Below, one piece after another: positions 3,223 through 57,987 of a DNA stretch of 64,000 nucleotides. Source of the DNA: Blastocatellia bacterium (lineage in GTDB: Bacteria; Acidobacteriota; Blastocatellia; UBA7656); contig JBKHYJ010000061.1 in NCBI GenBank assembly GCA_046565505.1, positions 26,552 to 90,551 of the forward strand, in the 5' to 3' direction. The notes beneath the pieces were generated by a model. That model saw only the letters and a program-made list of their open reading frames with translations, was not told the DNA's origin and made no database searches. Each line of letters starts with the position of its first letter. Position 1 is the first letter of the stretch. A program made the position numbers and the translations under genes.

Positions 3223-4878
3223 ATGAAAAAGTATGCAGTGCTGTGCGTGTGCCTGTCGTTAGCTTCCGTCCTTCTGGTGCCCCGCGAAACAGTCCATTCG
3301 CAGTCGCGCGCGGCGACGGGTCGCAATTACGTGGAAGGAGAGATCATCGTCAAATTCAGGGAGAGCGCGGAGCCCTTCTTAGAAGGACAAATCCCTGAAG
3401 AGATATTTAAAGGGAAGGCCACAAGGGTCGAGCCTTTATCTCGAAGAATGCACGGCAGCATCAACCGCATACGGCTCGGTGAGAATGTGTCTGTTGAAGA
3501 GGCGGTCGAGCAGGCGAAATCCGACCCGCGCGTGGAGTACGCCGAACCGAATTACCTGCTGTATGCCTCGGACACGACGCCGAATGACACTTACTTCACG
3601 AGGTTGTGGGGGATGCTGAACCCGGCCTGCCCCGCCTGTGACAATGGCGCGCGCGCGGACATAGGCGCGACGCGCGCGTGGGACATTACGACCGGCAGCG
3701 ACGACCTCGTCGTGGGCGTGATAGACACGGGCATAGACCTTTCTCACCCCGACCTCGCGCCCAACGCGTGGGTGAACCCGCGAGAGGTTGATGGGAATAA
3801 CGTAGACGACGACGGCAACGGCTACGTCGATGACGTGAACGGCTGGAATTTCTTCAGCGACAGCAAGGAGATCTATAAAGAGCGCTCGGAAGATTTGCAT
3901 GGCACGCACGTCGCCGGGACCATAGGCGCGGCGGGCAATAACGCGACGGGCGTCGCGGGCGTGGCCTGGCATGTGAAGCTCATGTCGCTGAAGTTCCTCG
4001 GCGGCAAGGATGGCAAAGGCTCGACCGGCAACGCGATAGAAGCCATCAACTACGCCATAGACCAGAAGCAGCGGGGTGTTAACATAAGAGTGCTCAACGC
4101 GAGCTGGGGCGGGGGCGGAAACTCCGCGGCGCTGCGCGAAGCGATCGCCGCGGCGGGAGAGGCGGGGATCGTGTTCGTATGCGCGGCGGGCAACGACGGC
4201 GAGGACGGCGACGCGTCCGACCATTTCCCTTCCGGCTACGCCCGCGAGCTTTCGAGCTGCGTGTCGGTCGCCGCGATCGACTCGCAAGACAACCTCGCTT
4301 CATTCTCAAACTATGGGCACAGCACCGTGAGCGTGGCCGCGCCCGGTTACCAGATTCTGAGCACGGTGCCGGAGGGCGGCTACAGCTCACTGAGCGGCAC
4401 CTCTATGGCTTCGCCGCACGTGGCCGGCGTGGCGGCGCTGCTTTTGTCCAAAGAGCCGTCGCTCACCCCGGCGGAAGTGAAGCAGCGAATTATCACGACG
4501 GCCGAGCCGATCCCTGCCCTGGTGTCTAAGGCCGTAAGCTCCGGCCGCGTGAATGCGTTTGACGCCCTGACGAGCAGGATCGCCCCCGCCGCTAAACCGG
4601 GCATCGTGAATGTGACGATAGATAAAAAGACGGTCACCATCGATGGCTTAGGTTTCTTGAGCAACTCCTCGGTTGTGGAAGTTAATGGGGCGCCGCTTTC
4701 GGGCATTAACTACGACAACTCCTACTCGCTCGCCAACGGTACGATCACAAGGCTGAGCATAGAACTGGGCAAGAAGGGCATAAAGAAGAACTTCCCGAAG
4801 GGCGAATATGTAAGCTTTACGGTTCTCAATTCGACGACGGGCGAGCGGTCCGCGCGATTCAGCACGGCGAGGTTTTAG
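3223..4878 (+). CDS. Secreted subtilisin-like serine protease, peptidase S8, with I9 propeptide and a C-terminal beta domain
   Basis: Signal peptide MKKYAVLCVCLSLASVLLVP. Catalytic triad motifs IDTGIDLSHPDL (Asp), HGTHVAGTIGA (His) and GTSMASPHVAGVAALL (Ser). Propeptide-like VEGEIIVKFRE. GAGG is 6 nt upstream of the ATG. Confidence 0.9.
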   Translation: MKKYAVLCVCLSLASVLLVPRETVHSQSRAATGRNYVEGEIIVKFRESAEPFLEGQIPEEIFKGKATRVEPLSRRMHGSINRIRLGENVSVEEAVEQAKSDPRVEYAEPNYLLYASDTTPNDTYFTRLWGMLNPACPACDNGARADIGATRAWDITTGSDDLVVGVIDTGIDLSHPDLAPNAWVNPREVDGNNVDDDGNGYVDDVNGWNFFSDSKEIYKERSEDLHGTHVAGTIGAAGNNATGVAGVAWHVKLMSLKFLGGKDGKGSTGNAIEAINYAIDQKQRGVNIRVLNASWGGGGNSAALREAIAAAGEAGIVFVCAAGNDGEDGDASDHFPSGYARELSSCVSVAAIDSQDNLASFSNYGHSTVSVAAPGYQILSTVPEGGYSSLSGTSMASPHVAGVAALLLSKEPSLTPAEVKQRIITTAEPIPALVSKAVSSGRVNAFDALTSRIAPAAKPGIVNVTIDKKTVTIDGLGFLSNSSVVEVNGAPLSGINYDNSYSLANGTITRLSIELGKKGIKKNFPKGEYVSFTVLNSTTGERSARFSTARF

Positions 4879-5233: not shown

Positions 5234-6925
5234 ATGAAGAAGTGCGTAGTTTCGTTTTTGGCGCTGGCCATCTTTTCCTTCACTTTCATCCCGCACAACA
5301 TCGCGTATTCGCAGGCGCGCAAAAACACCGGGCGGCGCTTCGTAGAAGGCGAGATCATCGTCAAGCTCAGGGAGGATGTCGAGCAGATTCATGACGAGCA
5401 GATGCCCGAGCAGATACTCAGGGGGAGGAACGCGAGGGTTGAGTCCCTGTCCCGGTCCGGCCGGGGCGGCATGAGCCTGGTCCATCTCGACTCGAACATC
5501 TCTGTCGAAGAGGCCATCCGGGCGGCGAACGAAGACCCGCGCGTGGAGTTCGCCGAGCCCAACTACCTCTACGGCCCGGCCGACACGATCCCGCTAGACG
5601 CGCAGTTCGTGTCCCTCTGGGGCCTGCGCAACACGGGCAACAACTCCCTGTCACAGGGCATCGCCGGCATCGACATAAGCGCGACGCGCGCGTGGGACAT
5701 CACGACAGGGAGCGATAATATAGTCGCGGCGATCATAGATACGGGCGTTGACCTCTCCCACCCCGACCTCAGGCCTAACGCATGGAAGAACCCTGGCGAG
5801 ATCGCGGGCAATAACATAGACGACGATGGCAATGGCTATGTCGATGACGTGAATGGCTGGAACTTCGCCGCCGACAGCAACAGGACGTTCGAGGATTTTT
5901 CTATCGACCGGCACGGCACACACGTGGCGGGCACGCTCGGCGCGGCGGCCGACGACGAGCACATAGGGGTGGTAGGCGTCGCGTGGCACGTGAAGCTCAT
6001 GTCGCTGAAGTTCATAGGCAGGCAGGACGACGGCCGGGTCGCGGGCACAAGCTCGGACGCCGTGAAGGCCATCAACTACGCCATCGACATGAAACACCGT
6101 GGCGTGAACCTCCGCGTAATCAACGCGAGCTGGGCCGGCGACAGTAATTCAAAGGCGCTGCGGAAGGCCATAGATAAAGCGGGCCAGGAAGGAATACTGT
6201 TTGTCTGCGCGGCGGGAAATGGCGGCGACGACAACTCTCAAGACGACGTGGACGAAGGCTCCGTGTTCCCCGCGGGGTGGGCGGCCGATTCACCTTCCGT
6301 CTTATCTGTGACTACGATAACTGCTTCGGGAGCCGTCCCCACCTGGGCCAATTACGGCCACACGGGCGTGAGCGTTGCCGCCCCTGGGACTGACATACTG
6401 AGCACGCTCCCCGGAGGCGGGTATGGCATCGACAGCGGCACGTCTATGTCCACCCCGCACGTGGCCGGGATAGCCGTGTTGCTCTGGGCGCAAAATCCGT
6501 CGCTCAGCCCGGCGGAAGTGAAAGCGCGCATAATCTCGACCGCGGACCCGGTGCTGGGACTTGCTTCTCGTTCCGCCAGCGCGGGCCGCGCTAACGCGTA
6601 CAACGCGCTGACGCCGGGGACTCCGCGCCCGCGCCCCGCGCCCGCTATAAGGCTGGTGAGCAGCGATAAGAAGCACCTGACCGTTGATGGCCTGGGCGTC
6701 CTCGATGGCTCGTCGGTCATCGAGGTGAATGGCCTCGCCGTAGATGGCCGCTACGAGTTCGACGAGGCTTACAGGCTCGCGAACGGGACTCTGACGCGGC
6801 TCAGCGTTAAGCTCAGCAAATCGAAGTTGAAAGAGATTTTACCGTCCGGCCAAACGAGGTCGGTTAGCCTCTATAACCCGACGACCGGCGAGCGGTCAGC
6901 TACGGTCTTTTACGTCAGGAACTGA
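5234..6925 (+). CDS. Secreted subtilisin-like serine protease, peptidase S8, paralog of 3223..4878
   Basis: The ORF-track frame opens at 5186. I prefer the ATG at 5234 (MKKCVVSFLALAIFSF, a signal peptide) with GAGG 8 nt upstream. Motifs IDTGVDLSHPDL, HGTHVAGTLGA and GTSMSTPHVAGIAVLL. Same C-terminal domain as subtilisin-1. Confidence 0.9.
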   Translation: MKKCVVSFLALAIFSFTFIPHNIAYSQARKNTGRRFVEGEIIVKLREDVEQIHDEQMPEQILRGRNARVESLSRSGRGGMSLVHLDSNISVEEAIRAANEDPRVEFAEPNYLYGPADTIPLDAQFVSLWGLRNTGNNSLSQGIAGIDISATRAWDITTGSDNIVAAIIDTGVDLSHPDLRPNAWKNPGEIAGNNIDDDGNGYVDDVNGWNFAADSNRTFEDFSIDRHGTHVAGTLGAAADDEHIGVVGVAWHVKLMSLKFIGRQDDGRVAGTSSDAVKAINYAIDMKHRGVNLRVINASWAGDSNSKALRKAIDKAGQEGILFVCAAGNGGDDNSQDDVDEGSVFPAGWAADSPSVLSVTTITASGAVPTWANYGHTGVSVAAPGTDILSTLPGGGYGIDSGTSMSTPHVAGIAVLLWAQNPSLSPAEVKARIISTADPVLGLASRSASAGRANAYNALTPGTPRPRPAPAIRLVSSDKKHLTVDGLGVLDGSSVIEVNGLAVDGRYEFDEAYRLANGTLTRLSVKLSKSKLKEILPSGQTRSVSLYNPTTGERSATVFYVRN

Positions 6926-7106: not shown

Positions 7107-7901
7107 GTGAGACAGTATTTAGACCTGCTGAAGCGCGTTCTTGAAGACGGCGCCCCGAAAGGCGACCGCACGGGCACAGGCACTTTATCCGTCTTCGGGC
7201 ACCAGATGAGGTTCGATCTGTCTGAAGGATTCCCGCTTTTGACGACGAAGAAATTGCACGTCAAATCAATCATCTATGAGCTCCTATGGTTTTTGAGAGG
7301 CGACACGAATGTCAACTACCTCCGGGACCGCGGCGTGAACATTTGGAATGAATGGGCGGACGAGACGGGCGACCTCGGCCCTGTCTACGGCGCCCAGTGG
7401 AGGTCATGGAGGACGGCCGATGGCCGCACCGTAGACCAGATCAGCCAGGTGATAGAGCAGATTAAATCTGACCCCGATTCGAGGCGGCTGATCGTAAGCG
7501 CCTGGAACGTGGGCGAGCTTGATAGGATGGCTCTCATGCCCTGCCATGCGCTTTTTCAATTTTACGTCGCGCGAGGCAAGCTCTCTTGCCAGCTTTATCA
7601 GAGGTCGGCCGACGTGTTTCTGGGCGTCCCTTTCAACATCGCGTCTTACTCGCTGCTCACTATGATGGTGGCACAGGTCTGCGGCCTCGAACCCGGAGAG
7701 TTTATCCACACCCTGGGCGACGCCCACCTGTATTCCAACCACCTTGAGCAGGCGCGATTGCAACTCGGCCGCGCGCCCAACAGACTCCCTCGAATGAGGA
7801 TTAATCCGGACGTCACGTCTATTTTTGAATTCGGCTACGAGGATTTCGAGCTTACAGGCTACGAGGCCCACCCGCACATTAAAGCCGAAGTCGCTGTTTA
7901 G
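7107..7901 (+). CDS. thyA: Thymidylate synthase
   Basis: GTG start 6 nt after GGGAGG. Classic ThyA sequence ([52 protein letters not shown] active-site Cys region). 264 aa. Confidence 0.95.
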
Positions 7902-24164: not shown

Positions 24165-24256
24165 TGTAGTGTATGCCTCTGGTGGGGTGGGCGCGGGGGC
24201 ATGGGGCGGGGGACGAACTTTATTCCAATCCCTGGCCCCTGCCCCCGCCCCGGCCC

Positions 24257-26155
24257 CTATTCTAGATACGTGTACCTGCTAATGTCACTCTCATATTGCT
24301 TCAGGAGCGCGTCGGCCTCTTCCTGCGTCATGTGCCCGCCCGCGATGCGCGCTTTAGCCATCCGCTGGACGTTGTCCCAGGCCTGGTTCCTGTCGTAACG
24401 CGCGTAAGAGATCATATCGCCTACGCGGCTGCCCGGGACTATCTTCTTGATATGGTAGCGGCCGTCGGTATCTATTATGACTTGCGCTTCGTTGGGCATG
24501 CCGAAAAGGTTATGAAAGCTCCCCATGACTTCCTGGTAAGCGCCGACTAAAAATATAGCGATGTAATACGGCTCGCCTGTGAACGGGTGAAGCTCCAGCA
24601 CCTCCTTGACATCCTTGAGGTCCACGAACTTGTCTATATGCCCGTCTGAATCGCACGTGATGTCGACGAACGTGGCGTAGTCGGTGGGCTGCTCGTTGAG
24701 CCTGTGGATGGGCATTATAGGGAAGAGCTGATCGATGGCCCAGTGGTCGGGCAGGGACCGGAAGACGGAAAAGTTGCACAGGTACTTCGACGCCAGAATC
24801 TTCTTCAGGTCGTCGAACTCTTCTTCCTGCACCTTCGCGGTCTGGGCGAATTTCGACGCGCGCGCGCAGACCTCCCAGAACAACACTTCGCCCTTGGCCC
24901 GGTCTTCGAGGCTGATCAGGCCAAGGTTGAACTGCATGTGGAGCTCCTCCTTGTGGTCGAGCGCGTCGTGGTAGTACTCGCGGTAGTTCTTCGAGGTTAT
25001 GTCGTCGTAGAGCCCCTTCAGCTCCGCGATCACCTGCGGGTCGTCCTCGTCCAGGGTGATCTCGGGCCGGTCGTCGGCGAACGTCTCTATCTCGTCGCGG
25101 ATCGACGTGACAAACACCGCGTGGTAGGCGCTCATCATGCGCCCGCTCTCGGTGACGAGGTTCGGCTCGGGGACGTTCTCGTCCTCGCAGACGGACTTGA
25201 TCGTGTACATAACGTCGTTGGCGAATTCCTGGGTCGTGTAGTTGACCGACGACTCGAAGGTGGTCTTCGACCCATCGTAATCGACGCCCATGCCGCCGCC
25301 TATGTCGAGGTACTCGACGTCGATGTGCATCTGCCGAATCTTGGAGTATACGCGGGCAGCCTCTTTCATCGCGCCCTTGACGCGCTTGATGTCGGTTATC
25401 TGCGACCCTATGTGGAAATGCAGCAGCTTGAGCGCGTCGGTCATCTCGTACTCGCGCAGCATCCTTATGCATTCGAGCATCTCGGATGGGGTCAGGCCGA
25501 ATTTGGCCGACTCGCCGCCCGACGAGGCCCACTTGCCGGAGCCCTTCGAGTAAAGCTTCGCGCGTATGCCGATGCCGGGGCGCACGCCCGTCTCTTGCGC
25601 GCGCCGGATGATCATCTTCAGCTCGTTGAGTTTTTCGACGACCACGATGACGCGCTTGCCTATCTGCACGCCCATCAGCGCCAGGTTGATGAACGCTTCG
25701 TCCTTAAACCCGTTGCATATGAGAAGTGATTCGGGCGTCTGCTCTAGCGACAGCGCGGCGTAAAGCTCCGCCTTCGAGCCGCACTCTACGCCGAAGTTAA
25801 ACTTGCTGCCTTCGCGCAAGAATACTTCGACCACCTCGCGCCGGGGGTTGACCTTCATCGGGAAGACCGCGTAGTGAGTGCCCGAGTAATTGAACTCGCG
25901 CGCGGCCTCGTGAAAGGAGCGCTGAAGCTTCTTCAGCTGGTTGGTCAGAATCTGCGGGAATCGGAGCAGTACAGGGAGTTGAAGCTTGCGCTGGTCTATG
26001 AGGTGATCTATTAGCTCTTTAATATCAACTGATCGGGGGTCGCCCTCAGCAGGGCGAACTGCAAGGTGGCCTTTTCGGTTTACCTCAAAGTATCCTGCCC
26101 CCCAGTTTTCCACACCATAGGTCTGAATGACCTCTTCCAGTGTGATATTCCTCAT
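24257..26155 (-). CDS. speA: Biosynthetic arginine decarboxylase
   Basis: 632 aa. Characteristic SpeA N-terminus (YGVENWGAGYFEVNRKGHLAVRP) and the PLP-fold decarboxylase region (FHIGSQ). Confidence 0.9.
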   Translation of the reverse strand: MRNITLEEVIQTYGVENWGAGYFEVNRKGHLAVRPAEGDPRSVDIKELIDHLIDQRKLQLPVLLRFPQILTNQLKKLQRSFHEAAREFNYSGTHYAVFPMKVNPRREVVEVFLREGSKFNFGVECGSKAELYAALSLEQTPESLLICNGFKDEAFINLALMGVQIGKRVIVVVEKLNELKMIIRRAQETGVRPGIGIRAKLYSKGSGKWASSGGESAKFGLTPSEMLECIRMLREYEMTDALKLLHFHIGSQITDIKRVKGAMKEAARVYSKIRQMHIDVEYLDIGGGMGVDYDGSKTTFESSVNYTTQEFANDVMYTIKSVCEDENVPEPNLVTESGRMMSAYHAVFVTSIRDEIETFADDRPEITLDEDDPQVIAELKGLYDDITSKNYREYYHDALDHKEELHMQFNLGLISLEDRAKGEVLFWEVCARASKFAQTAKVQEEEFDDLKKILASKYLCNFSVFRSLPDHWAIDQLFPIMPIHRLNEQPTDYATFVDITCDSDGHIDKFVDLKDVKEVLELHPFTGEPYYIAIFLVGAYQEVMGSFHNLFGMPNEAQVIIDTDGRYHIKKIVPGSRVGDMISYARYDRNQAWDNVQRMAKARIAGGHMTQEEADALLKQYESDISRYTYLE

Positions 26156-37914: not shown

Positions 37915-38031
37915 ATGACTAACAAGAATTTGACAGACGGAATGTTGATCAGCAGCGTGAGCCTTCTTAGCGAAGGAATGTTGATCAGTAGCATGAGCCT
38001 TCTTAGCGAAGGAATGTTGATCAGCAGCTAG
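37915..38031 (+). CDS. Micro-ORF of 38 codons (MTNKNLTDGMLISSVSLLSEGMLISSMSLLSEGMLISS). Putative small peptide (precursor, membrane-active or leader peptide).
   Basis: Strong SD AAGAGGAG 6 nt upstream of the ATG, preceded by an A-rich enhancer-like tract. The body is built from a 36-bp tandem repeat. The N-terminus is paralogous to the next micro-ORF. Confidence 0.45.
   Translation: MTNKNLTDGMLISSVSLLSEGMLISSMSLLSEGMLISS
37939..38028 (+). repeat. 36-bp tandem repeat, 2.5 copies (GGAATGTTGATCAGCAGCGTGAGCCTTCTTAGCGAA)
   Basis: Copy 1 is 37939-37974, copy 2 is 37975-38010 with two substitutions, and the half copy is 38011-38028. It is in frame with the micro-ORF and encodes GMLISS[V/M]SLLSE units. 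Confidence 0.85.
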
Positions 38032-38196: not shown

Positions 38197-38364
38197 CGCT
38201 TTTAGCAGCGAACCGCTGAGTATCAACCCAGAGCCGCGTCAGTCCGGCAGCGAGTTACCTGGAAGTCGAGTTGAAGAGATTGGACCCAAGAGCCGGTATC
38301 ATTATAGCGAAAACTTGAGCATCTACTAAACAAGTAATAAACCCAAAAGTGCTACCTCAAAAGT

Positions 38365-38437
38365 GCGGCGTCGATGAATTTAGGCCTGTCGGGCTGGTTT
38401 TGACAACTTGCCTTAATTCATCGGCGCCGCGTTTTTT
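38365..38437 (+). terminator. Long stem-loop plus T-tract terminator downstream of the micro-ORFs
   Basis: 15/16-bp arms GCGGCGTCGATGAATT / AATTCATCGGCGCCGC with a 34-nt loop, immediately followed by GTTTTTTGTT. Confidence 0.45.
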
Positions 38438-50306: not shown

Positions 50307-50409
50307 GATTTTATCCTTTCTTACCCTAAACAGTGATGAGTGATAAATAAAACGTAATGAGTCATGCGTGACGGCCGTGGCCTGCGACGCCCGTGTCACG
50401 CATCACGCA

Positions 50410-51705
50410 TCACGTTTTACTTTTTCTGATCTGCTCGATCGCGGCCTCCAGTTGCGAGTCGCGGCCTTCGAGCAGAGCGCGGCGCGAGAGACTCACTTCA
50501 ACATCGGGTCTGACCCCGCGCCCTTCTATCAGCACGCCCTTCGGGGTCTTAAAGTCGGCGACCGCGTATTGCAGCCGCGCGCCCGTGGGCAGTTGAATAA
50601 TCTGCGACGGCAGGGCCGCGCCCATGCTCTGCTCCCCCACCACGGTCGCGCGGCCAAGCTCCTGAATCCCGGCCGCGAACACTTCGCTGGTTGACGCGCT
50701 GCCGCCATCGATCAGCACGACGACAGGCCCGGCGTACGCGCCCGCCTGCGGGAAGGCTATGAAGCTCAATTGAGTCGTTCGCATCTTCATGACGCCGAGC
50801 GAGACCTGTTTCGTTTCGAGCATCCCGGCTATGCCATTCGCCATGCCCCCGACCCCGCCGGGGTTGCCGCGCAGGTCTATGATGATCCCGGGCGCGTCGC
50901 TCATCTCGCGTATCGCCGCGCGTATCTTATCCATCAGCATGGTGACGAATATGTTGAAGCGGATGTACCCGATTTTGTTCTCCAGCCGCTTCGACTCGAA
51001 TTCCGTGTACTGGGGCGGGAAGTTCCCGAAGGCGGGAGACATCTCCCCTTTAAACCTTTCGCGCGTCACCACCGCCTCGCGCGGCTGGTCCTTCTCGTCG
51101 AGGTAGGTAATGCGGACGGGAGTGTCCGGCTTGCCGTTGATGCGACGGAGCACGGCGTGAATCATGAAGAGGCGTGTCATGGCGGGCGATTCCTTGCTCT
51201 TTAAGAATGGCCCGGTGATCTGCTCCACGGTCGCATCATCGACTTTCTTGATTACGAACCCCGTGCGCAGGCCGGCGCCCGCCGCGCTCGACCCCGGCTG
51301 GAGCCGCGTAATCACTGCCTGGTTGTCTATGAACCGGATGTCTATGCCGATCCCGCCGCCTTCTGGGACCTTCGACTCGCTCTGGATTATGGCCTCGGGA
51401 GGGATGACGCGGAAATGAGATTGATGCAGCTCGCCGAGCATCTGCTGTAGCAAGTCGTAAAGCTCGCCGTCACTCTTGACCGCGCTCACGCGGGGCGCGT
51501 AACGCTCGCGCACCTTGTCCCAGTCGACGCCGCCGAGCGTCGGGTCGAAATGCTTTTCTTTGACCGTGCGCCAGACCACATCAAAAGTTTCCTGGCGCAG
51601 GTCTGCCGCCGAGGCTTTCGCGCCGCCCGCCGCGGGCCCGGTCTGCGCCGCCGCGCTCGTAAGCGTCAAGGCGCATAGGTAAACAATCAGTGCGATCTTT
51701 TTCAC
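50410..51705 (-). CDS. C-terminal processing (tail-specific) peptidase S41 with PDZ domain
   Basis: The S41 motif IIDLRGNPGG and a PDZ-like GIGIDIRFIDNQAVITRLQPGSSAAGAGL. Signal peptide. A GTG start at 51705 with GAGGAA 6 nt upstream is preferred over the TTG at 51711. Confidence 0.85.
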   Translation of the reverse strand: MKKIALIVYLCALTLTSAAAQTGPAAGGAKASAADLRQETFDVVWRTVKEKHFDPTLGGVDWDKVRERYAPRVSAVKSDGELYDLLQQMLGELHQSHFRVIPPEAIIQSESKVPEGGGIGIDIRFIDNQAVITRLQPGSSAAGAGLRTGFVIKKVDDATVEQITGPFLKSKESPAMTRLFMIHAVLRRINGKPDTPVRITYLDEKDQPREAVVTRERFKGEMSPAFGNFPPQYTEFESKRLENKIGYIRFNIFVTMLMDKIRAAIREMSDAPGIIIDLRGNPGGVGGMANGIAGMLETKQVSLGVMKMRTTQLSFIAFPQAGAYAGPVVVLIDGGSASTSEVFAAGIQELGRATVVGEQSMGAALPSQIIQLPTGARLQYAVADFKTPKGVLIEGRGVRPDVEVSLSRRALLEGRDSQLEAAIEQIRKSKT

Positions 51706-54999: not shown

Positions 55000-55037
55000 G
55001 AAAGGAGCCTCGCGCGCGCGAGGCTCCTTTCTTCTTC
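55000..55037 (+). terminator. Intrinsic terminator after the M36 peptidase gene
   Basis: Perfect 32-nt palindrome GAAAGGAGCCTCGCGCGCGCGAGGCTCCTTTC followed by TTCTTCT. Confidence 0.6.
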
Positions 55038-55303
55038 TGGAATACATGCAGGTTGTATAGAGATTTCCCATCGCCGGTACTTTATTCCCGGCACACCTGT
55101 AACCAAGCTCCCCCACCGACCCGGATCAACCCGGGCGCCGCACAAGTTGAACTCGCCTGAAGGCTAACACTTAGATCCGCTGCCGCACTATACGCCCGAG
55201 CCCAAAGTAGCTGGCATAGCATATGCACTCTTGATTCGTACCTGTTTACCAAGTTTCAAAGCCGGTTGAATGAGCACGGTCGGGAACCAGGTGAAAAGAG
55301 TTT

Positions 55304-55780
55304 ATGACGGCTTCATGGAAGTATGTGAAACGGTTGATAGCTGTGGTGCTGGGGTTGTTGGGATTAGCAAGCTGGGTCGCGCTACAAACGCCCGCCATGA
55401 TGGCCGCGTCTGTATCTTCATGCGGCACCTCCAACTCAATTACATTCGCAGGCGAATCATACGACCGGGCCGCGTATGATGGGGCAGGTCTTGCACGCGG
55501 CCGGACGGCGCGCAAGCTGCGCGGCGATATCCCGCCGGTATCTGAAGCGAATCGCGAGCACGCAGGTACTGGTATAAAGTTCATCTCGGGCGATGGCGGA
55601 TACAATTTTCACTCGGCCCCATGCGGGGCGGTAACGGGATTGCGGATTGCGCATTTGGGCATACGGAATGCGGGACTGCGCAGCGCGGTTTATAGTCCTC
55701 CCCAATCGCAATCCGCAACTATATTGAAAGCAAATCTGAAATACCGTGTCCGGCCAAGCCTGGTCATGGCTGAACGATGA
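55304..55780 (+). CDS. Doubtful ORF (158 aa, signal-like N-terminus) overlapping a palindromic repeat
   Basis: Hydrophobic N-terminus LIAVVLGLLGLASWVAL, but the body overlaps inverted repeats sharing the CGGATTGCG core and has atypical composition. Confidence 0.2.
   Translation: MTASWKYVKRLIAVVLGLLGLASWVALQTPAMMAASVSSCGTSNSITFAGESYDRAAYDGAGLARGRTARKLRGDIPPVSEANREHAGTGIKFISGDGGYNFHSAPCGAVTGLRIAHLGIRNAGLRSAVYSPPQSQSATILKANLKYRVRPSLVMAER
55641..55717. repeat. Inverted repeat with 11-bp arms TGCGGATTGCG / CGCAATCCGCA and a 55-nt spacer (palindrome family member A)
   Basis: Perfect arms at 55641-55651 and 55707-55717. The core CGGATTGCG is shared with the palindrome at 56317-56414. Confidence 0.5.
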
Positions 55781-56047
55781 AGATCAGAAAGCAACGCGGG
55801 ACGTTGGCGACATGAATGCGACCTGGCATGGCGAGAGTGCGATCTTATTGAGCGGCGGCGGCGCGAGCGCGGCTCCGCGCCGGGCAGTAGGCCGAGTGGT
55901 CTACCTTTATGTGCCGGGCGGCGACGTGGCCTAGTGTGCGGCGGGGCGTTTATATGATGAGGGTTTCAGCTGCCCCCCGCGGAGCCATCCGCAGTTTTCC
56001 CGTCGCGAAAGACCGGCGAGCGGTCGCCTTGCATGATTTACAAAGAT

Positions 56048-56120
56048 CGGATTTGGGACGAGTGATTCAAGGGAGAAGTGGTTCGGTGTCAGAATCAACA
56101 GACTCACTGTCCCAAATCCG
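56048..56120. repeat. Inverted repeat with 12-bp arms CGGATTTGGGAC / GTCCCAAATCCG and a 49-nt spacer (palindrome family member B)
   Basis: Perfect arms. The flanks extend imperfectly (GACGAGTGA / TCACTGTC). The arm core CGGATT is related to members A and C. Confidence 0.5.
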
Positions 56121-56316
56121 TAATCCGATTACTGACGGAGGCTTGTTGATGCTAATACTTCCTTTAACACGCAAGCTCTCGAACAACCACAAACAAAGTA
56201 TAGCCATCTTTTAGGAAGTGGCAATCGAAGCGGCGCGACCGTATTCGGTTCCTAATATTTCGACTCTGAATATTTCGGCCCCGCGCGTTTTAAGCGCGAA
56301 GAGTTGCCGCGCAGGC

Positions 56317-56414
56317 GGGGCAAGCTTACGGATTGCGGGATGAGACGCCCTGCCGTCAAAAGACCGCGGGGGCAGTTCCCAAGTCTCATTGCCCGCAATC
56401 CGTAAGCCTGCCCC
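56317..56414. repeat. Long inverted repeat with 30-bp arms (2 mismatches) and a 36-nt loop (palindrome family member C)
   Basis: GGGGCAAGCTTACGGATTGCGGGATGAGAC / GTCTCATTGCCCGCAATCCGTAAGCCTGCCCC. It lies directly downstream of the minus-strand sigma-54 regulator gene, with no T-tract on either side. Confidence 0.55.
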
Positions 56415-56492
56415 ACCCCCTCAGGAACCAGGGGCGGCAGGTGCCACCACGCCTGCCGCCCTGCCTAGAATGGAACTTTCCCGCCAGTGAAT

Positions 56493-57863
56493 TCAACTCT
56501 GACCGCCGCCGGGCCGCTTATCGCTGATGCCCAGGGCCTTCATCCTGCGATAAAGGTGTGAGCGGTCGATGCCCAGAGCCTCCGCCGTGCGCGTGATGTT
56601 GCCGTCGCACTCGGCGAGCTTTCGCATGATGTAGCTGCGCTCGTATGATTCGCGCCCTTCGCGGTACGAAGTGAAGTTGTAGCGCGCGGGCGCCTTCACC
56701 GCGTCGGGCGTCCCGAGCGGCGGCAGGTCTTCGGCGGCAATCCGCTCTCTCGCCGACATTATAACCACGCGCTCAATCGTGTTCCTGAGCTCGCGCACGT
56801 TGCCGGGCCAGTCGTAAGACCCTAAACGCTCGATGGCGTCATCAGTGAAAGACTTAGGCGCGCGGTTGTAATGGGCGGAGTATTTTCGATTGAAGTGATC
56901 TATCAGGAGGGGTATGTCTTCGCCGCGGTCGCGAAGCGGGGGCACCTCGAACGGTATGACGTTCAGGCGGTAGAAAAGGTCCGCGCGAAACGTGCCGCGC
57001 TCTATCCCTTCGTCGAGCCGCTTGTTAGTCGCCGCGATTATCCTCACGTCGACTTTAACGGGCGTGTTCGACCCGACGGGCTCGAACCGCTGCTCTTCCA
57101 AGACGCGCAAGACCTTGGCCTGCACCTTCAGGCTCATGTCGCTCACCTCATCAAGTAAGAGCGTGCCGGCGTCCGCCTGCTCGAACTTGCCGCGCTTGGC
57201 TTGCGTGGCGCCCGTGAACGCGCCTTTCGTGTGGCCGAACAATTCAGACTCGATCAGCTCTTCTGGAATGGCCGCGCAGTTTAGTTCGACGAACGGCATG
57301 GACGCGCGCGGGGAATGTTCATGGATGGCGCGCGCGACAAGCTCTTTGCCCGTACCCGACTCGCCATAGATGAGGATGCGCCCGCCCGTGGGCGCGGCTA
57401 TGGCTATCTGCTGGCGGAGCGCGCGCATGGGGACGCTCTCGCCTATCATCACGTAGTCGTCGAGCTGGTCGCGGAGTCGCTGGTTGTCCGCCTCTAGCTG
57501 CCGCTGCCGCAGGGCGTTGCGAATGGCGAGCACGGTGCGGTCGATCTGGAGCGGCTTTTCGATGAAGTCGAGCGCGCCTAGCCTCGTCGCGCGCACGGCG
57601 GTTTCAATGTTGCCGTGGCCGCTTATCATAATCACGGCCGTGTCGGGATAGGACGCCTTCAGCCGCTCAAGCGTTTCAATGCCATCCATCCCGGGCAGCC
57701 ACACGTCGAGCAAAACGCAACTGAACAGGCGGCGCTCGAATATTGCCATGCACTCCTCGCCGGACGCGGCCGTCTCTACCGACAGGCCCTCGTCTTCGAG
57801 CACGCCTGCGAGCGTCTGCCGTATTCCTTCTTCGTCGTCAACGACAAGCACGGAGTTGGGCAT
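56493..57863 (-). CDS. Sigma-54-dependent NtrC-family response regulator (REC-AAA+-HTH)
   Basis: REC domain (VLVVDDEEGIRQTL...LLDVWLPGMDG), Walker A GESGTGKE, the sigma-54 interaction region (GAFTGA) and a C-terminal Fis-type HTH. Confidence 0.9.
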   Translation of the reverse strand: MPNSVLVVDDEEGIRQTLAGVLEDEGLSVETAASGEECMAIFERRLFSCVLLDVWLPGMDGIETLERLKASYPDTAVIMISGHGNIETAVRATRLGALDFIEKPLQIDRTVLAIRNALRQRQLEADNQRLRDQLDDYVMIGESVPMRALRQQIAIAAPTGGRILIYGESGTGKELVARAIHEHSPRASMPFVELNCAAIPEELIESELFGHTKGAFTGATQAKRGKFEQADAGTLLLDEVSDMSLKVQAKVLRVLEEQRFEPVGSNTPVKVDVRIIAATNKRLDEGIERGTFRADLFYRLNVIPFEVPPLRDRGEDIPLLIDHFNRKYSAHYNRAPKSFTDDAIERLGSYDWPGNVRELRNTIERVVIMSARERIAAEDLPPLGTPDAVKAPARYNFTSYREGRESYERSYIMRKLAECDGNITRTAEALGIDRSHLYRRMKALGISDKRPGGGQS

Positions 57864-57987
57864 GGTCAGGGGCGGGCGATGAGCGGCGGGGAGTGAGTGA
57901 AAGAAGTTAAACGCGGCCCGCAGCCGCCGGACGCAAACCGCCGCATGCGGCCAACTGCCCGTTCTTCTCCCGCCGGCTCCTCAGCCC

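What the first reader, a model, noticed from the sequence alone, without database searches (positions are those of the whole stretch)
55146..56492. Poorly coding 1.3-kb island containing a family of three related long palindromes (core CGGATTGCGG / CGGATTTGGGAC)
Three imperfect-to-perfect inverted repeats lie between the M36 peptidase terminator and the end of the sigma-54 regulator gene. Their arms are 11, 12 and 30 bp, with loops of 36-55 nt, and the arm sequences are mutually related: TGCGGATTGCG, CGGATTTGGGAC and TTACGGATTGCGGGATGAGAC. None is followed by a T-tract, so they are not ordinary terminators. The only sizeable ORF here (55304-55780) overlaps palindrome A and has odd composition. 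Candidates include a genome-specific REP/BIME-like or MITE-like repeat family, a structured non-coding RNA locus, or enhancer-like binding sites for the adjacent NtrC-type activator, although its sigma-54 promoter is not evident.
Basis: seen in the sequence. Interest (0 to 1): 0.5.

Follow-up and report, generated by a model that had tools for sequence, protein, structure and literature searches.

The report
Three conserved hairpins beside sigma-54 regulator
The three related palindromes are real, belong to a widespread and apparently undescribed family of hairpins whose arms are tandem CGGATTG heptamers, and in this soil acidobacterium sit as strongly conserved single copies inside a sigma-54-controlled locus, so they probably work as RNA stem-loops rather than as junk repeats.

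Summary
Hairpins A (55640-55718), B (56048-56120) and C (56314-56418) exist, and a fourth (B2, 56138-56180) lies between B and C. The island is not simply "poorly coding". It is a conserved block (55054-56440) found at the same place in at least six related Blastocatellia lineages. A and B are 91-98% identical between lineages, where synonymous sites of the neighbouring regulator are 58-67% identical. C is kept by compensatory changes (8 of 39 pairs). A covariance model built only from (CGGATTG)n hairpins of unrelated genomes finds exactly A, B and C in the 64-kb window. In other genomes such hairpins occur several per contig, like REP elements. Here they are single, orthologous copies under purifying selection. 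My best reading is that they are domesticated repeat copies acting as RNA stem-loops. A would end the sigma-54 transcript, B plus B2 would form a candidate small RNA, and C would be a two-way terminator against the convergent regulator operon. The strands and the function are inferred, not shown.

The parts
55054..55106 (.). Conserved upstream block (UAS1), a candidate enhancer site for the adjacent sigma-54 activator. It is also the sharp left boundary of the conserved island.
   Evidence: 94-100% identical in all lineages. Its centre is about 130 bp upstream of the -24 element. It shows no RNA structure signal, z about 0. Left-flanking genes differ between lineages.
55137..55177 (.). Second conserved upstream block. 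It contains an IHF-like sequence (AATCTAAGTGTTA on the minus strand in relatives).
   Evidence: 81-100% identical. The IHF resemblance, one mismatch to WATCAANNNNTTR, rests on my own knowledge of the consensus and was not tested.
55212..55227 (+). Sigma-54 (-24/-12) type promoter, TGGCATAGCATATGCA.
   Evidence: One of only three matches to TGGC-N8-TGCW in the window. Invariant except one spacer base in all lineages. The 88% lineage L331 has TGGCACAGTGAATGCA at the same distance from the UAS1-like block.
55304..55780 (+). ORF158, a small protein with a signal-peptide or transmembrane N-terminus. Only about the first 33 codons are clearly constrained as protein.
   Evidence: 10 homologues and alignment A1. 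In codons 1-33 the third position is the least conserved, though a rough hand chi-square over the three codon positions (my estimate, p about 0.2; no tool call) is not significant; the middle is near neutral. There is a 174-nt deletion in L290 and a frameshift in L291. A distant homologue exists in L331 (E=1e-6). No Pfam family matches.
55636..55722 (+). Hairpin A, with arms at 55640-55651 and 55707-55718. The left arm is degenerate CGGATTG heptamers. It overlaps the 3' part of ORF158.
   Evidence: 94-98% identical against a neutral value of 58-67%, and 95-100% in seven lineages. Third codon positions are the most conserved. The + strand fold is more stable in all five lineages and carries four invariant G.U pairs. 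Family model R2 gives E=8.5e-4.
56040..56127 (.). Hairpin B, with arms at 56048-56059 and 56109-56120, extended by 56061-56065 and 56104-56108. The loop is invariant and contains GGGAGAAG (+ strand), which reads CUUCUCCC on the - strand.
   Evidence: 91-94% identical, 93-100%. Strand evidence is balanced. R2 gives E=0.015. On the minus strand it is followed by the conserved AUCUUUGUAAAU.
56138..56180 (.). On the minus strand it is flanked by the invariant GCAUCAACAAGCCUC(C).
   Evidence: Found by alifold on both strands. Pair 56154/56165 occurs as A-T, T-A and G-C, and pair 56153/56166 as T-A and C-G.
56197..56224 (-). Sigma-70-like promoter, TTGCCA-16 nt-TATACT. It would start a roughly 155-nt minus-strand RNA running through B2 and ending at B.
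   Evidence: 10 of 12 consensus matches. The -10 element is invariant and the -35 element is TTGNCN in four of five lineages. The conserved block ends at the -35 element on one side and at the U-rich tail on the other. This is a consensus match only.
56314..56418 (.). Hairpin C: 33-pair outer stem, 2-nt bulge, inner 6-pair stem. It lies between the convergent transcription units, 75 nt beyond the regulator stop codon.
   Evidence: dG is -73.7 (+ strand) and -88.7 (- strand) kcal/mol. 95.8% of cells are paired and 8 of 39 pairs carry compensatory changes in 5 sequences, against none in the slid controls. R2 gives E=5.6e-8.
56493..57863 (-). Sigma-54-dependent response regulator (receiver, AAA+ and Fis-type HTH domains; JGI calls relatives NtrX). 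It is the last gene of a bPH/Zn-ribbon, DUF6599, regulator operon and is the presumed activator of the 55212 promoter.
   Evidence: Pfam domains. Synteny with the island in every lineage that has the island. Source names.

Best explanation
The three palindromes, plus a fourth hairpin B2, are domesticated copies of a widespread REP-like repeat family. In that family each element is a hairpin with arms made of tandem CGGATTG heptamers.

In this Blastocatellia clade the copies became fixed between two convergent transcription units and are now kept by selection as RNA stem-loops.

The first unit starts at a sigma-54 promoter at 55212-55227, with a conserved enhancer-like block about 130 bp upstream. 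It is presumably switched on by the adjacent NtrX-like activator. It encodes a small secreted or membrane protein (ORF158) and ends in hairpin A, which would act as its 3' terminal, terminator or stabiliser structure on the + strand.

Hairpins B2 and B, together with a conserved sigma-70-like promoter, look like a separate minus-strand RNA of about 155 nt. It would have CU-rich single-stranded segments (CCUCC, CUUCUCCC) and B as its terminator-like 3' hairpin.

Hairpin C, a 33-bp stem just beyond the regulator's stop codon, would act as a two-way terminator or insulator between the converging transcripts.

Shown: the structures, their family relationship, their orthologous conservation, the compensatory changes in C and B2, and the conserved sigma-54 promoter. 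Inferred: that the elements act as RNA, the strand assignments, termination, and control by the neighbouring activator.
For: - Family membership. 36% of these arrays are followed by an inverted array, and the CGGATTG arm is 5' in 47 of 48 cases, as in A, B and C. Model R2, built only from those foreign hairpins, hits exactly A, B and C in the window.
- Selection. The island is present once, at the same position, in seven lineages. A is 0.94-0.98 identical and B 0.91-0.94, against 0.58-0.67 at four-fold sites of the regulator and 0.14-0.56 in the spacers.
- Hairpin A is constrained as nucleic acid. Its third codon positions are the most conserved. In L291 it is read in another frame. P0010 keeps hairpin A with the signal peptide deleted.
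- Hairpin C has 8 of 39 pairs with compensatory changes. B2 has a pair occurring in three Watson-Crick types.
- A favours the + strand in all lineages.
- The sigma-54 promoter and UAS1 are conserved, and are also present in the 88% lineage L331, which lacks B and C.
- The minus-strand promoter has an invariant -10 element, and the conserved B block is bounded by the -35 element and the U-rich tail.
- In L331 and L210 a different large hairpin occupies the 3' end of the ORF, so a structure at that position predates hairpin A.
Against: - No expression data exist. None of the hairpins has a canonical short-loop, U-tract terminator form.
- For B, B2 and C, positions that pair as G.U only on the + strand and only on the - strand are about equal in number. 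This fits DNA-level constraint as well as RNA.
- The loops of A and B are invariant. That is more than a terminator needs and suggests a sequence-specific partner not identified here.
- The ORF158 frame runs through hairpin A, which is unusual for a terminator.
- Only five to seven closely related lineages are available, so the covariation statistics are weak. Compensatory-looking changes in long palindromes can also arise by intrastrand templated repair.
- R2's alignment was seeded by a model of hairpin C, so the membership test is not fully independent. B's E-value is marginal.
Confidence: 0.45

Rival explanations
1. All hairpins are modules of one long sigma-54-dependent regulatory RNA on the + strand. 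It would be a dual-function mRNA and sRNA whose repeated stem-loops are the active or processed units, as in NrsZ or Pxr.
For: - The conserved sigma-54 promoter lies upstream of all of them and next to an NtrC-family activator.
- A prefers the + strand.
- Three substitutions in B and in a possible pairing between the B loop and downstream sequence (AUCAACA with UGUUGAU) are all G.U-compatible on the + strand only.
- P0010 keeps the start of the ORF fused directly to hairpin A.
- There are precedents. NrsZ is NtrC/RpoN-dependent and is processed into three similar stem-loop modules whose number varies between species (PMC4253122). Pxr lies downstream of the sigma-54 regulator nla19, has a sigma-54 promoter and forms three stem-loops (PMC5568312).
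Against: - The hairpins are spread over 1.2 kb, with unconserved spacers that can be deleted. A 270-nt spacer is missing in L291.
- C is more stable on the minus strand in four of five lineages.
- B2 has three positions that pair only on the minus strand.
- A conserved minus-strand promoter lies between B2 and C.
- No Rfam family, including any known sigma-54-dependent sRNA, matches.
Confidence: 0.2
2. The palindromes act as DNA. They would be binding sites for a dimeric or oligomeric protein (extra enhancer sites for the NtrX-like activator, a nucleoid protein or a recombinase) or cruciform-forming sites.
For: - G.T and A.C departures are balanced, with no strand preference in B, B2 and C.
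- The arms consist of repeated heptamers, iteron-like.
- They are adjacent to a DNA-binding activator.
- The left edge of the island is a rearrangement hotspot, with an integrase next to it in L288.
Against: - Enhancer sites normally lie 100-200 bp upstream. A better candidate, UAS1 at 55054-55106, is there and shares no motif with the hairpins.
- Half-sites 50-60 bp apart do not fit a dimer.
- The loops of A and B are as conserved as the arms.
- Compensatory changes in C alter the arm sequence while keeping the pairing, which a sequence-reading protein would not tolerate.
- A shows a consistent + strand advantage with invariant G.U pairs.
Confidence: 0.15
3. They are ordinary selfish or neutral REP/MITE-like repeats with no role at this locus. 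The apparent conservation would come from recent common ancestry or from homogenisation within the repeat family.
For: They belong to a family that is dispersed several per contig in other genomes. Heptamer tandem arrays in general are common: three composition-matched control heptamers gave 5, 16 and 12 stretches in IMG/VR.
Against: - There are single copies at orthologous positions in seven lineages and no other copy in 1.03 Mb.
- Flanking spacers have decayed to 14-56% identity and synonymous sites to 58-67%, while A and B stay at 91-98%, including their unique loops. Family-level homogenisation cannot explain conserved loops.
- No target-site duplications are visible in the sequence.
Confidence: 0.1

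Closest known systems
REP/BIME elements (repetitive extragenic palindromes) of Proteobacteria
   Same: Imperfect palindromes in extragenic DNA, often just after gene 3' ends. In some genomes this family occurs several times per contig: 4 in 11 kb in L008 and 3 in 8 kb in L103. REPs are known to serve as mRNA 3' stabilisers or terminators (own knowledge).
   Different: The elements are 75-110 nt rather than about 35 nt, and their arms are built from tandem heptamers. The same unit is seen in many phyla. No RAYT transposase was looked for. At this locus the copies are single, orthologous and under purifying selection.
Heptanucleotide tandem repeats: cyanobacterial STRR (own knowledge) and TAACTGA repeats of Beggiatoaceae, Cyanobacteria and Bacteroidetes (PMC4679880)
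   Same: A specific heptamer is repeated in tandem, mostly 3-5 copies. It is found in distantly related phyla with no evident transfer mechanism, and often sits a few nucleotides upstream of start codons.
   Different: The unit is CGGATTG. About a third of arrays are paired with an inverted array to form a long hairpin, whereas one inverted set against 169 direct sets was reported for TAACTGA. The window copies are degenerate, with 2.7 units at best.
NrsZ (Pseudomonas) and Pxr (Myxococcus): sigma-54-dependent sRNAs encoded next to an NtrC-family regulator
   Same: A sigma-54 promoter next to the gene of a sigma-54 activator, several related stem-loops, and a module number or content that varies between lineages.
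   Different: Here the sigma-54 transcript starts with a protein-coding ORF. The hairpins are spread over 1.2 kb and may lie on different strands. The unit is convergent with the regulator rather than co-directional. There is no sequence or Rfam similarity.
Bidirectional intrinsic terminators between convergent genes
   Same: Hairpin C is a very stable symmetric stem between two converging units, and its structure is kept by compensatory changes. The window has a classical example at 38359-38436.
   Different: The 33-bp stem has a 36-nt internal region and no U- or A-tracts on either side.

Membership tests
(CGGATTG)n heptamer-palindrome family (defined here; not found in Rfam or the paper library) | Scores against a covariance model built only from such hairpins of unrelated genomes. 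| tested here: met
   Model R2 (52 matches from L087-L186) gives C 44.2 bits (E=5.6e-8), A 27.6 bits (E=8.5e-4) and B 22.7 bits (E=0.015). There are no other hits in the 64-kb window. Caveats: the alignment was seeded by a model of C, the E-values are rough, and B is marginal.
(CGGATTG)n heptamer-palindrome family | Polarity: the CGGATTG-type arm is 5' and the CAATCCG-type arm is 3' on either strand. | tested here: met
   47 of 48 hairpin-type arrays in genome loci have this polarity. A, B and C all do.
(CGGATTG)n heptamer-palindrome family | At least three tandem heptamer units in an arm. | tested here: inconclusive
   TRF finds 2.7 copies of GGATTGC at 55637-55655. C has CGGATTG followed by CGGGATG. 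The minus strand of B has CGGATTA followed by CGGATTT. All are degenerate relative to the family.
REP/BIME | Many dispersed copies in the same genome. | tested here: not met
   There are no further copies in the 64-kb window or in 1.03 Mb of window plus relatives' loci. The whole source genome was not available.
REP/BIME | A cognate RAYT (Y1 transposase) in the genome. | not tested
   Only nine proteins around the island were scanned. The genome is not available.
MITE | Terminal inverted repeats flanked by target-site duplications, with presence/absence polymorphism between relatives. | tested here: not met
   No direct repeats flank A, B or C (sequence). All three are present at the same positions in every lineage of the clade.
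Rho-independent terminator | G+C-rich stem, 3-8 nt loop, followed by a U-tract. | tested here: not met
   The scan reports the M36 terminator at 55000-55031 but none of A, B or C. Their loops are 36-55 nt. Only B on the minus strand has a U-rich tail (AUCUUUGU).
Sigma-54 promoter | GG at -24 and GC at -12 with TGGCAC-N5-TTGCW spacing. | tested here: met
   TGGCATAGCATATGCA at 55212-55227. It is invariant apart from one spacer base in all lineages. L331 has TGGCACAGTGAATGCA. Activity is not testable here.
Enhancer (UAS) of a bacterial enhancer-binding protein | Dyad sites about 80-200 bp upstream of the sigma-54 promoter. | tested here: not met
   The hairpins lie 400-1200 bp downstream of the promoter. 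The conserved block in the usual position is 55054-55106, and it shares no motif with them.
Any Rfam 15 family (including Pxr, Acido-1, Acido-Lenti-1 and known sRNAs) | Reaches the family gathering score. | tested here: not met
   There are no hits at gathering thresholds in the window or in 12 related loci. The best sub-threshold hits are miRNA-like long hairpins and BjrC80 at 24 bits against a threshold of 80.
Integron attC site | R''/R' core sites RYYYAAC ... GTTRRRY at the ends of the imperfect palindrome. | tested here: not met
   By reading the sequence, the arms end in CGGATT/AATCCG and no GTTRRRY core is present. There is no integron integrase among the neighbours. The core consensus is from my own knowledge.

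The most novel reading that the evidence does not exclude
Hairpins built from inverted arrays of the heptamer CGGATTG may be a cross-phylum class of functional nucleic-acid elements, present in Acidobacteriota, Planctomycetota, Verrucomicrobiota, Gemmatimonadota, Chloroflexota, Bacteroidota and their viruses, and recognised by a shared cellular factor. The three copies here would then be the working parts of the first sigma-54/NtrX-dependent riboregulator locus described in Acidobacteria. That locus would be a modular RNA system analogous to NrsZ or Pxr, in which repeat-derived stem-loops have been recruited as regulatory modules.
Probability: 0.2. Interest if true: 0.7.

Novelty: new variant of a known kind. 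Interest (0 to 1): 0.5.

Why it matters
Three points would matter if this holds.

- It would give a concrete, datable example of repeat domestication. Copies of a dispersed palindromic repeat family are absent from the 88% sister lineage. They are fixed and then frozen by selection in the lineages whose regulator is at least 92% identical.
- It would define a candidate sigma-54 regulon member: enhancer-like block, promoter, small secreted protein and structured RNA. It lies next to an NtrX-like activator in Blastocatellia, a soil group with almost no experimentally studied regulation.
- It draws attention to (CGGATTG)n palindromes. This hairpin family appears in many phyla and viral contigs, but is not in Rfam and did not turn up in full-text searches for the repeat sequence.

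Tried and rejected
- Rfam scans of the window at gathering thresholds, of the island at E<=10, and of 12 loci at gathering thresholds found nothing meaningful.
- There are no tRNA or tmRNA genes that could explain the sharp left boundary of the island.
- An 18-base palindromic pattern, CGGATTGCG-N40-70-CGCAATCCG, gave 27 stretches in viral contigs. That is close to my own rough estimate of chance, which assumes a collection size the tool does not report. Inspecting them revealed the heptamer arrays.
- A metagenome scan with the regulator protein returned 80 loci at 87% identity or less. None has island DNA or ORF158, so they were useless for covariation. The informative orthologues came from homologues of ORF158 instead.
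- I considered whether (CGGATTG)n arrays are themselves sigma-54 promoters, since GG-N8-TTGC fits the -24/-12 spacing. Flanking genes mostly run in the opposite (CAATCCG) sense: 106 against 36, and 81 against 21. The idea was dropped.
- A 21-codon ORF at 56149 with GGAGG-N7-ATG shows no codon-position signature, and its stop codon is lost in the closest relative. I judge it probably not a gene.
- A motif shared between UAS1 and the leader (ACCTGTWWAC) has a single match in the window and was not pursued.
- Strand assignment by counting G.U against A.C positions gave an answer only for A.
- Full-text searches for the repeat sequence or its translation found no relevant paper.
- Look-ups of P0008, P0010 and P0012 gave no DNA.
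Full report
**1. The observation**

The three inverted repeats are present as described.
- A has 12-bp perfect arms at 55640-55651 and 55707-55718.
- B has 12-bp perfect arms at 56048-56059 and 56109-56120, 17 bp with one bulge.
- C spans 56314-56418, with 33 pairs, a 2-nt bulge and an inner stem.

Each folds better than shuffled sequence. z-scores are -2.85 for A, -2.87 for B, and -6.5 or -9.0 for C on the two strands. The arms are related to one another. Six of the 12 near-matches to CGGATTGCGGATTG in the whole 64-kb window lie inside 55636-56409. The neighbours are an M36 peptidase with a classical terminator at 55000-55031 and a sigma-54-dependent response regulator. JGI names relatives of the regulator NtrX, and every close homologue comes from Blastocatellia MAGs.

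**2. What the arms are made of**

The left arm of A reads GGGATTG CGGATTG CGCATTT GGGCATA CGGAATG CGGGACT, which is a degenerate tandem heptamer. TRF reports 2.7 copies.

Exact (CGGATTG)x3 occurs in 61 stretches of IMG/VR. All of those are MAGs. Among the 80 rows shown, about 25 are Acidobacteriota, 16 Planctomycetota, 14 Verrucomicrobiota, and the rest Gemmatimonadota, Chloroflexota, Bacteroidota and others.

Three composition-matched control heptamers gave 5, 16 and 12 stretches in IMG/VR. Heptamer arrays are therefore common in general, and CGGATTG is 4-12 times more frequent than those controls.

In the genome loci, 47 of 131 arrays are followed within 120 nt by an inverted array, which forms a hairpin. 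Only one array has the opposite polarity. A, B and C share the common polarity.

A covariance model of hairpin C alone (R1) finds such hairpins in unrelated contigs, often several per contig: four in 11 kb of L008 and three in 8 kb of L103. That is a REP-like distribution.

A second model (R2) was built only from 52 matches in genome loci L087-L186. In the window it finds exactly three hits: C (E=5.6e-8), A (E=8.5e-4) and B (E=0.015). A, B and C are therefore members or derivatives of this family. There are two caveats. The R2 alignment was seeded by C, and B is marginal.

Nothing in Rfam matches. Full-text searches for the repeat sequence or its translation found no description. The nearest published analogue I read is the TAACTGA heptamer repeat of Beggiatoaceae, Cyanobacteria and Bacteroidetes (PMC4679880).

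**3. The island is a conserved unit**

Eighty metagenome loci with regulators at 87% identity or less lack the island. ORF158, however, has ten homologues. Their contigs show the same arrangement: an ORF158-like gene convergent with the regulator, DUF6599 and bPH/Zn-ribbon operon. The left-flanking genes differ. They are M36, an SLFN helicase plus integrase, HhH-GPD, or a Pkinase/TIR gene. The regulators in these loci are 92-99% identical to the window's.

The DNA from 55054 to about 56440 aligns throughout at 72-92% identity. Each element occurs once per locus, and nowhere else in 1.03 Mb.

Four-fold degenerate sites of the regulator serve as a neutral yardstick. They are 0.58-0.67 identical to the three more distant lineages. 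Block identities are as follows.

| Block | Identity |
|---|---|
| UAS1 (55054-55106) | 0.94-1.00 |
| Sigma-54 promoter and leader | 0.85-0.89 |
| ORF N-terminus | 0.78-0.90 |
| ORF middle | 0.13-0.66 |
| Hairpin A | 0.94-0.98 |
| Hairpin B | 0.91-0.94 |
| Hairpin C | 0.74-0.81 |
| Spacers | 0.14-0.56 |

**4. A sigma-54 transcription unit**

TGGCATAGCATATGCA at 55212-55227 matches the -24/-12 consensus spacing. It is invariant except for one spacer base. A nearly invariant block lies about 130 bp upstream. That block shows no RNA-structure signal, which fits a DNA-level enhancer.

The 88% lineage L331 keeps a UAS1-like block, TGGCACAGTGAATGCA at the same distance, and a diverged homologue of the ORF (blastp E=1e-6 against P0004). 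It has no hairpin B or C and no right arm of A. A different large hairpin sits at the 3' end of its ORF. The promoter and ORF are therefore older, and the three palindromes are an innovation of the narrower clade.

ORF158 is real but only partly constrained.
- Codons 1-33, a signal-peptide-like helix, change mostly at third positions and by conservative replacements. The codon-position skew is not statistically significant by a rough hand chi-square (my estimate, p about 0.2; no tool call).
- The middle evolves near neutrality, carries a 174-nt deletion in L290, and is frameshifted in L291.
- Across hairpin A, third positions are the most conserved (0.96-1.00).
- One homologue (P0010) joins MTAS directly to hairpin A.

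Hairpin A is thus conserved as nucleic acid, not as protein.

**5. Structure and strand**

Hairpin C has 95.8% of cells paired. Eight of its 39 pairs carry changes on both sides in only five sequences. There are none when the partners are slid by 1-3 columns, and at most 1 of 500 shuffles reaches the observed values.

A new hairpin, B2 (56138-56180), has one pair that occurs as A-T, T-A and G-C.

A is more stable on the + strand in all five lineages and carries four invariant G.U pairs. For B, B2 and C, positions that pair only on one strand are balanced between the strands. C is more stable on the minus strand in four of five lineages.

A sigma-70-like promoter on the minus strand (TTGCCA-16 nt-TATACT, 56224-56197) has an invariant -10 element. 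The conserved B block runs from that promoter to the U-rich sequence AUCUUUGUAAAU that follows B on the minus strand. A minus-strand RNA of about 155 nt would carry B2 and the invariant single-stranded GCAUCAACAAGCCUC(C). It would also carry CUUCUCCC in the loop of B. This is typical sRNA anatomy, and it is inference only.

**6. Interpretation**

The copies are not active or neutral repeats at this locus. They are single, orthologous and strongly constrained, including their unique loops.

They are poor candidates for enhancer sites. Their position is wrong, their loops are conserved, and C tolerates arm changes as long as pairing is kept.

My best-supported reading (confidence 0.45) is that they are repeat-derived RNA stem-loops recruited at the ends of three transcription units in a sigma-54-regulated locus.
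- A closes the sigma-54-dependent ORF158 transcript.
- B2 and B form a candidate minus-strand sRNA.
- C insulates the converging regulator operon.

The main rival (0.2) is one long modular sigma-54-dependent RNA in the manner of NrsZ (PMC4253122) or Pxr (PMC5568312). DNA-level binding (0.15) and non-functional repeats (0.1) follow.

The invariant loops of A and B remain unexplained by a pure terminator role and point to an unidentified sequence-specific partner.

**7. Verdict**

The feature is a new variant of known kinds: REP-like palindromes built from heptamer arrays, here domesticated next to a sigma-54 regulator. It is of moderate interest. Expression data would be decisive.

Noticed in passing
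window 50345-50422: Another heptamer-built palindrome with a different unit (TCACGCA x2.7, arms 28 nt, 86% complementary). It spans the 10-nt gap between the S41 peptidase gene and the LolA-like gene.
   Followed up: partly
L288 4973-5728 and L289 1445-2167, against window 55054: In one lineage an SLFN-type helicase and a DUF4420/phage-integrase gene are inserted exactly at the left edge of the conserved island. Four lineages have four different left neighbours, so the site just upstream of UAS1 looks like an insertion or rearrangement hotspot. No tRNA is present.
   Followed up: partly
L244, about 760-800 on the + strand (minus-strand 4135-4165): A (CAATCCG)n array lies in frame inside what reads as a sensor-kinase coding region (…GTERNPHSAIRNPQSDDQ…). 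Simple arrays in general sit inside or at the 5' end of open frames in the CAATCCG sense far more often than in the opposite sense (106 against 36). The repeat has no stop codon in any of the six frames.
   Followed up: partly
L290 8461-8546: A family-type hairpin (R2 E=6e-4) sits in the short gap between the DUF6599 gene and the regulator gene of one relative. The window has none at the equivalent place (57864-57987).
   Followed up: no
L331 5484-5589 and L210 10876-10981: Sister lineages have a different large hairpin (about -53 to -57 kcal/mol) at the 3' end of the ORF158 homologue. It encloses a sequence similar to the left arm of hairpin A, so a structure at this position predates hairpin A.
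   Followed up: partly
L221 about 7345-7420; L223 about 6660-6720: Downstream of more distant regulator homologues there are other repeat-built hairpins. One has an octamer-like unit (CGACGGGG)n with an inverted copy. The other consists of GGACAGNCTAAAGNCTGTCC hairpins.
   Followed up: no
window 37939-38028: A 36-nt tandem repeat, 2.5 copies, 94% matches (TRF score 166).
   Followed up: no
window 24184-24257: A G-rich/C-rich imperfect palindrome with 28-nt arms (79% complementary), containing CCCTGCC heptamer repeats.
   Followed up: no
window about 55002 (end of Logan contig SRR23730088_2546): The only public contig carrying identical proteins ends right at the M36 terminator palindrome. This suggests that short-read assembly breaks at that hairpin.
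   Followed up: no
window 56149-56214: A 21-codon ORF with a strong GGAGG-N7-ATG start, kept in frame in four lineages. It has no codon-position signature, and its stop codon is lost in the closest relative. Its start codon could pair with the loop of hairpin B (AUCAACA with UGUUGAU).
   Followed up: yes
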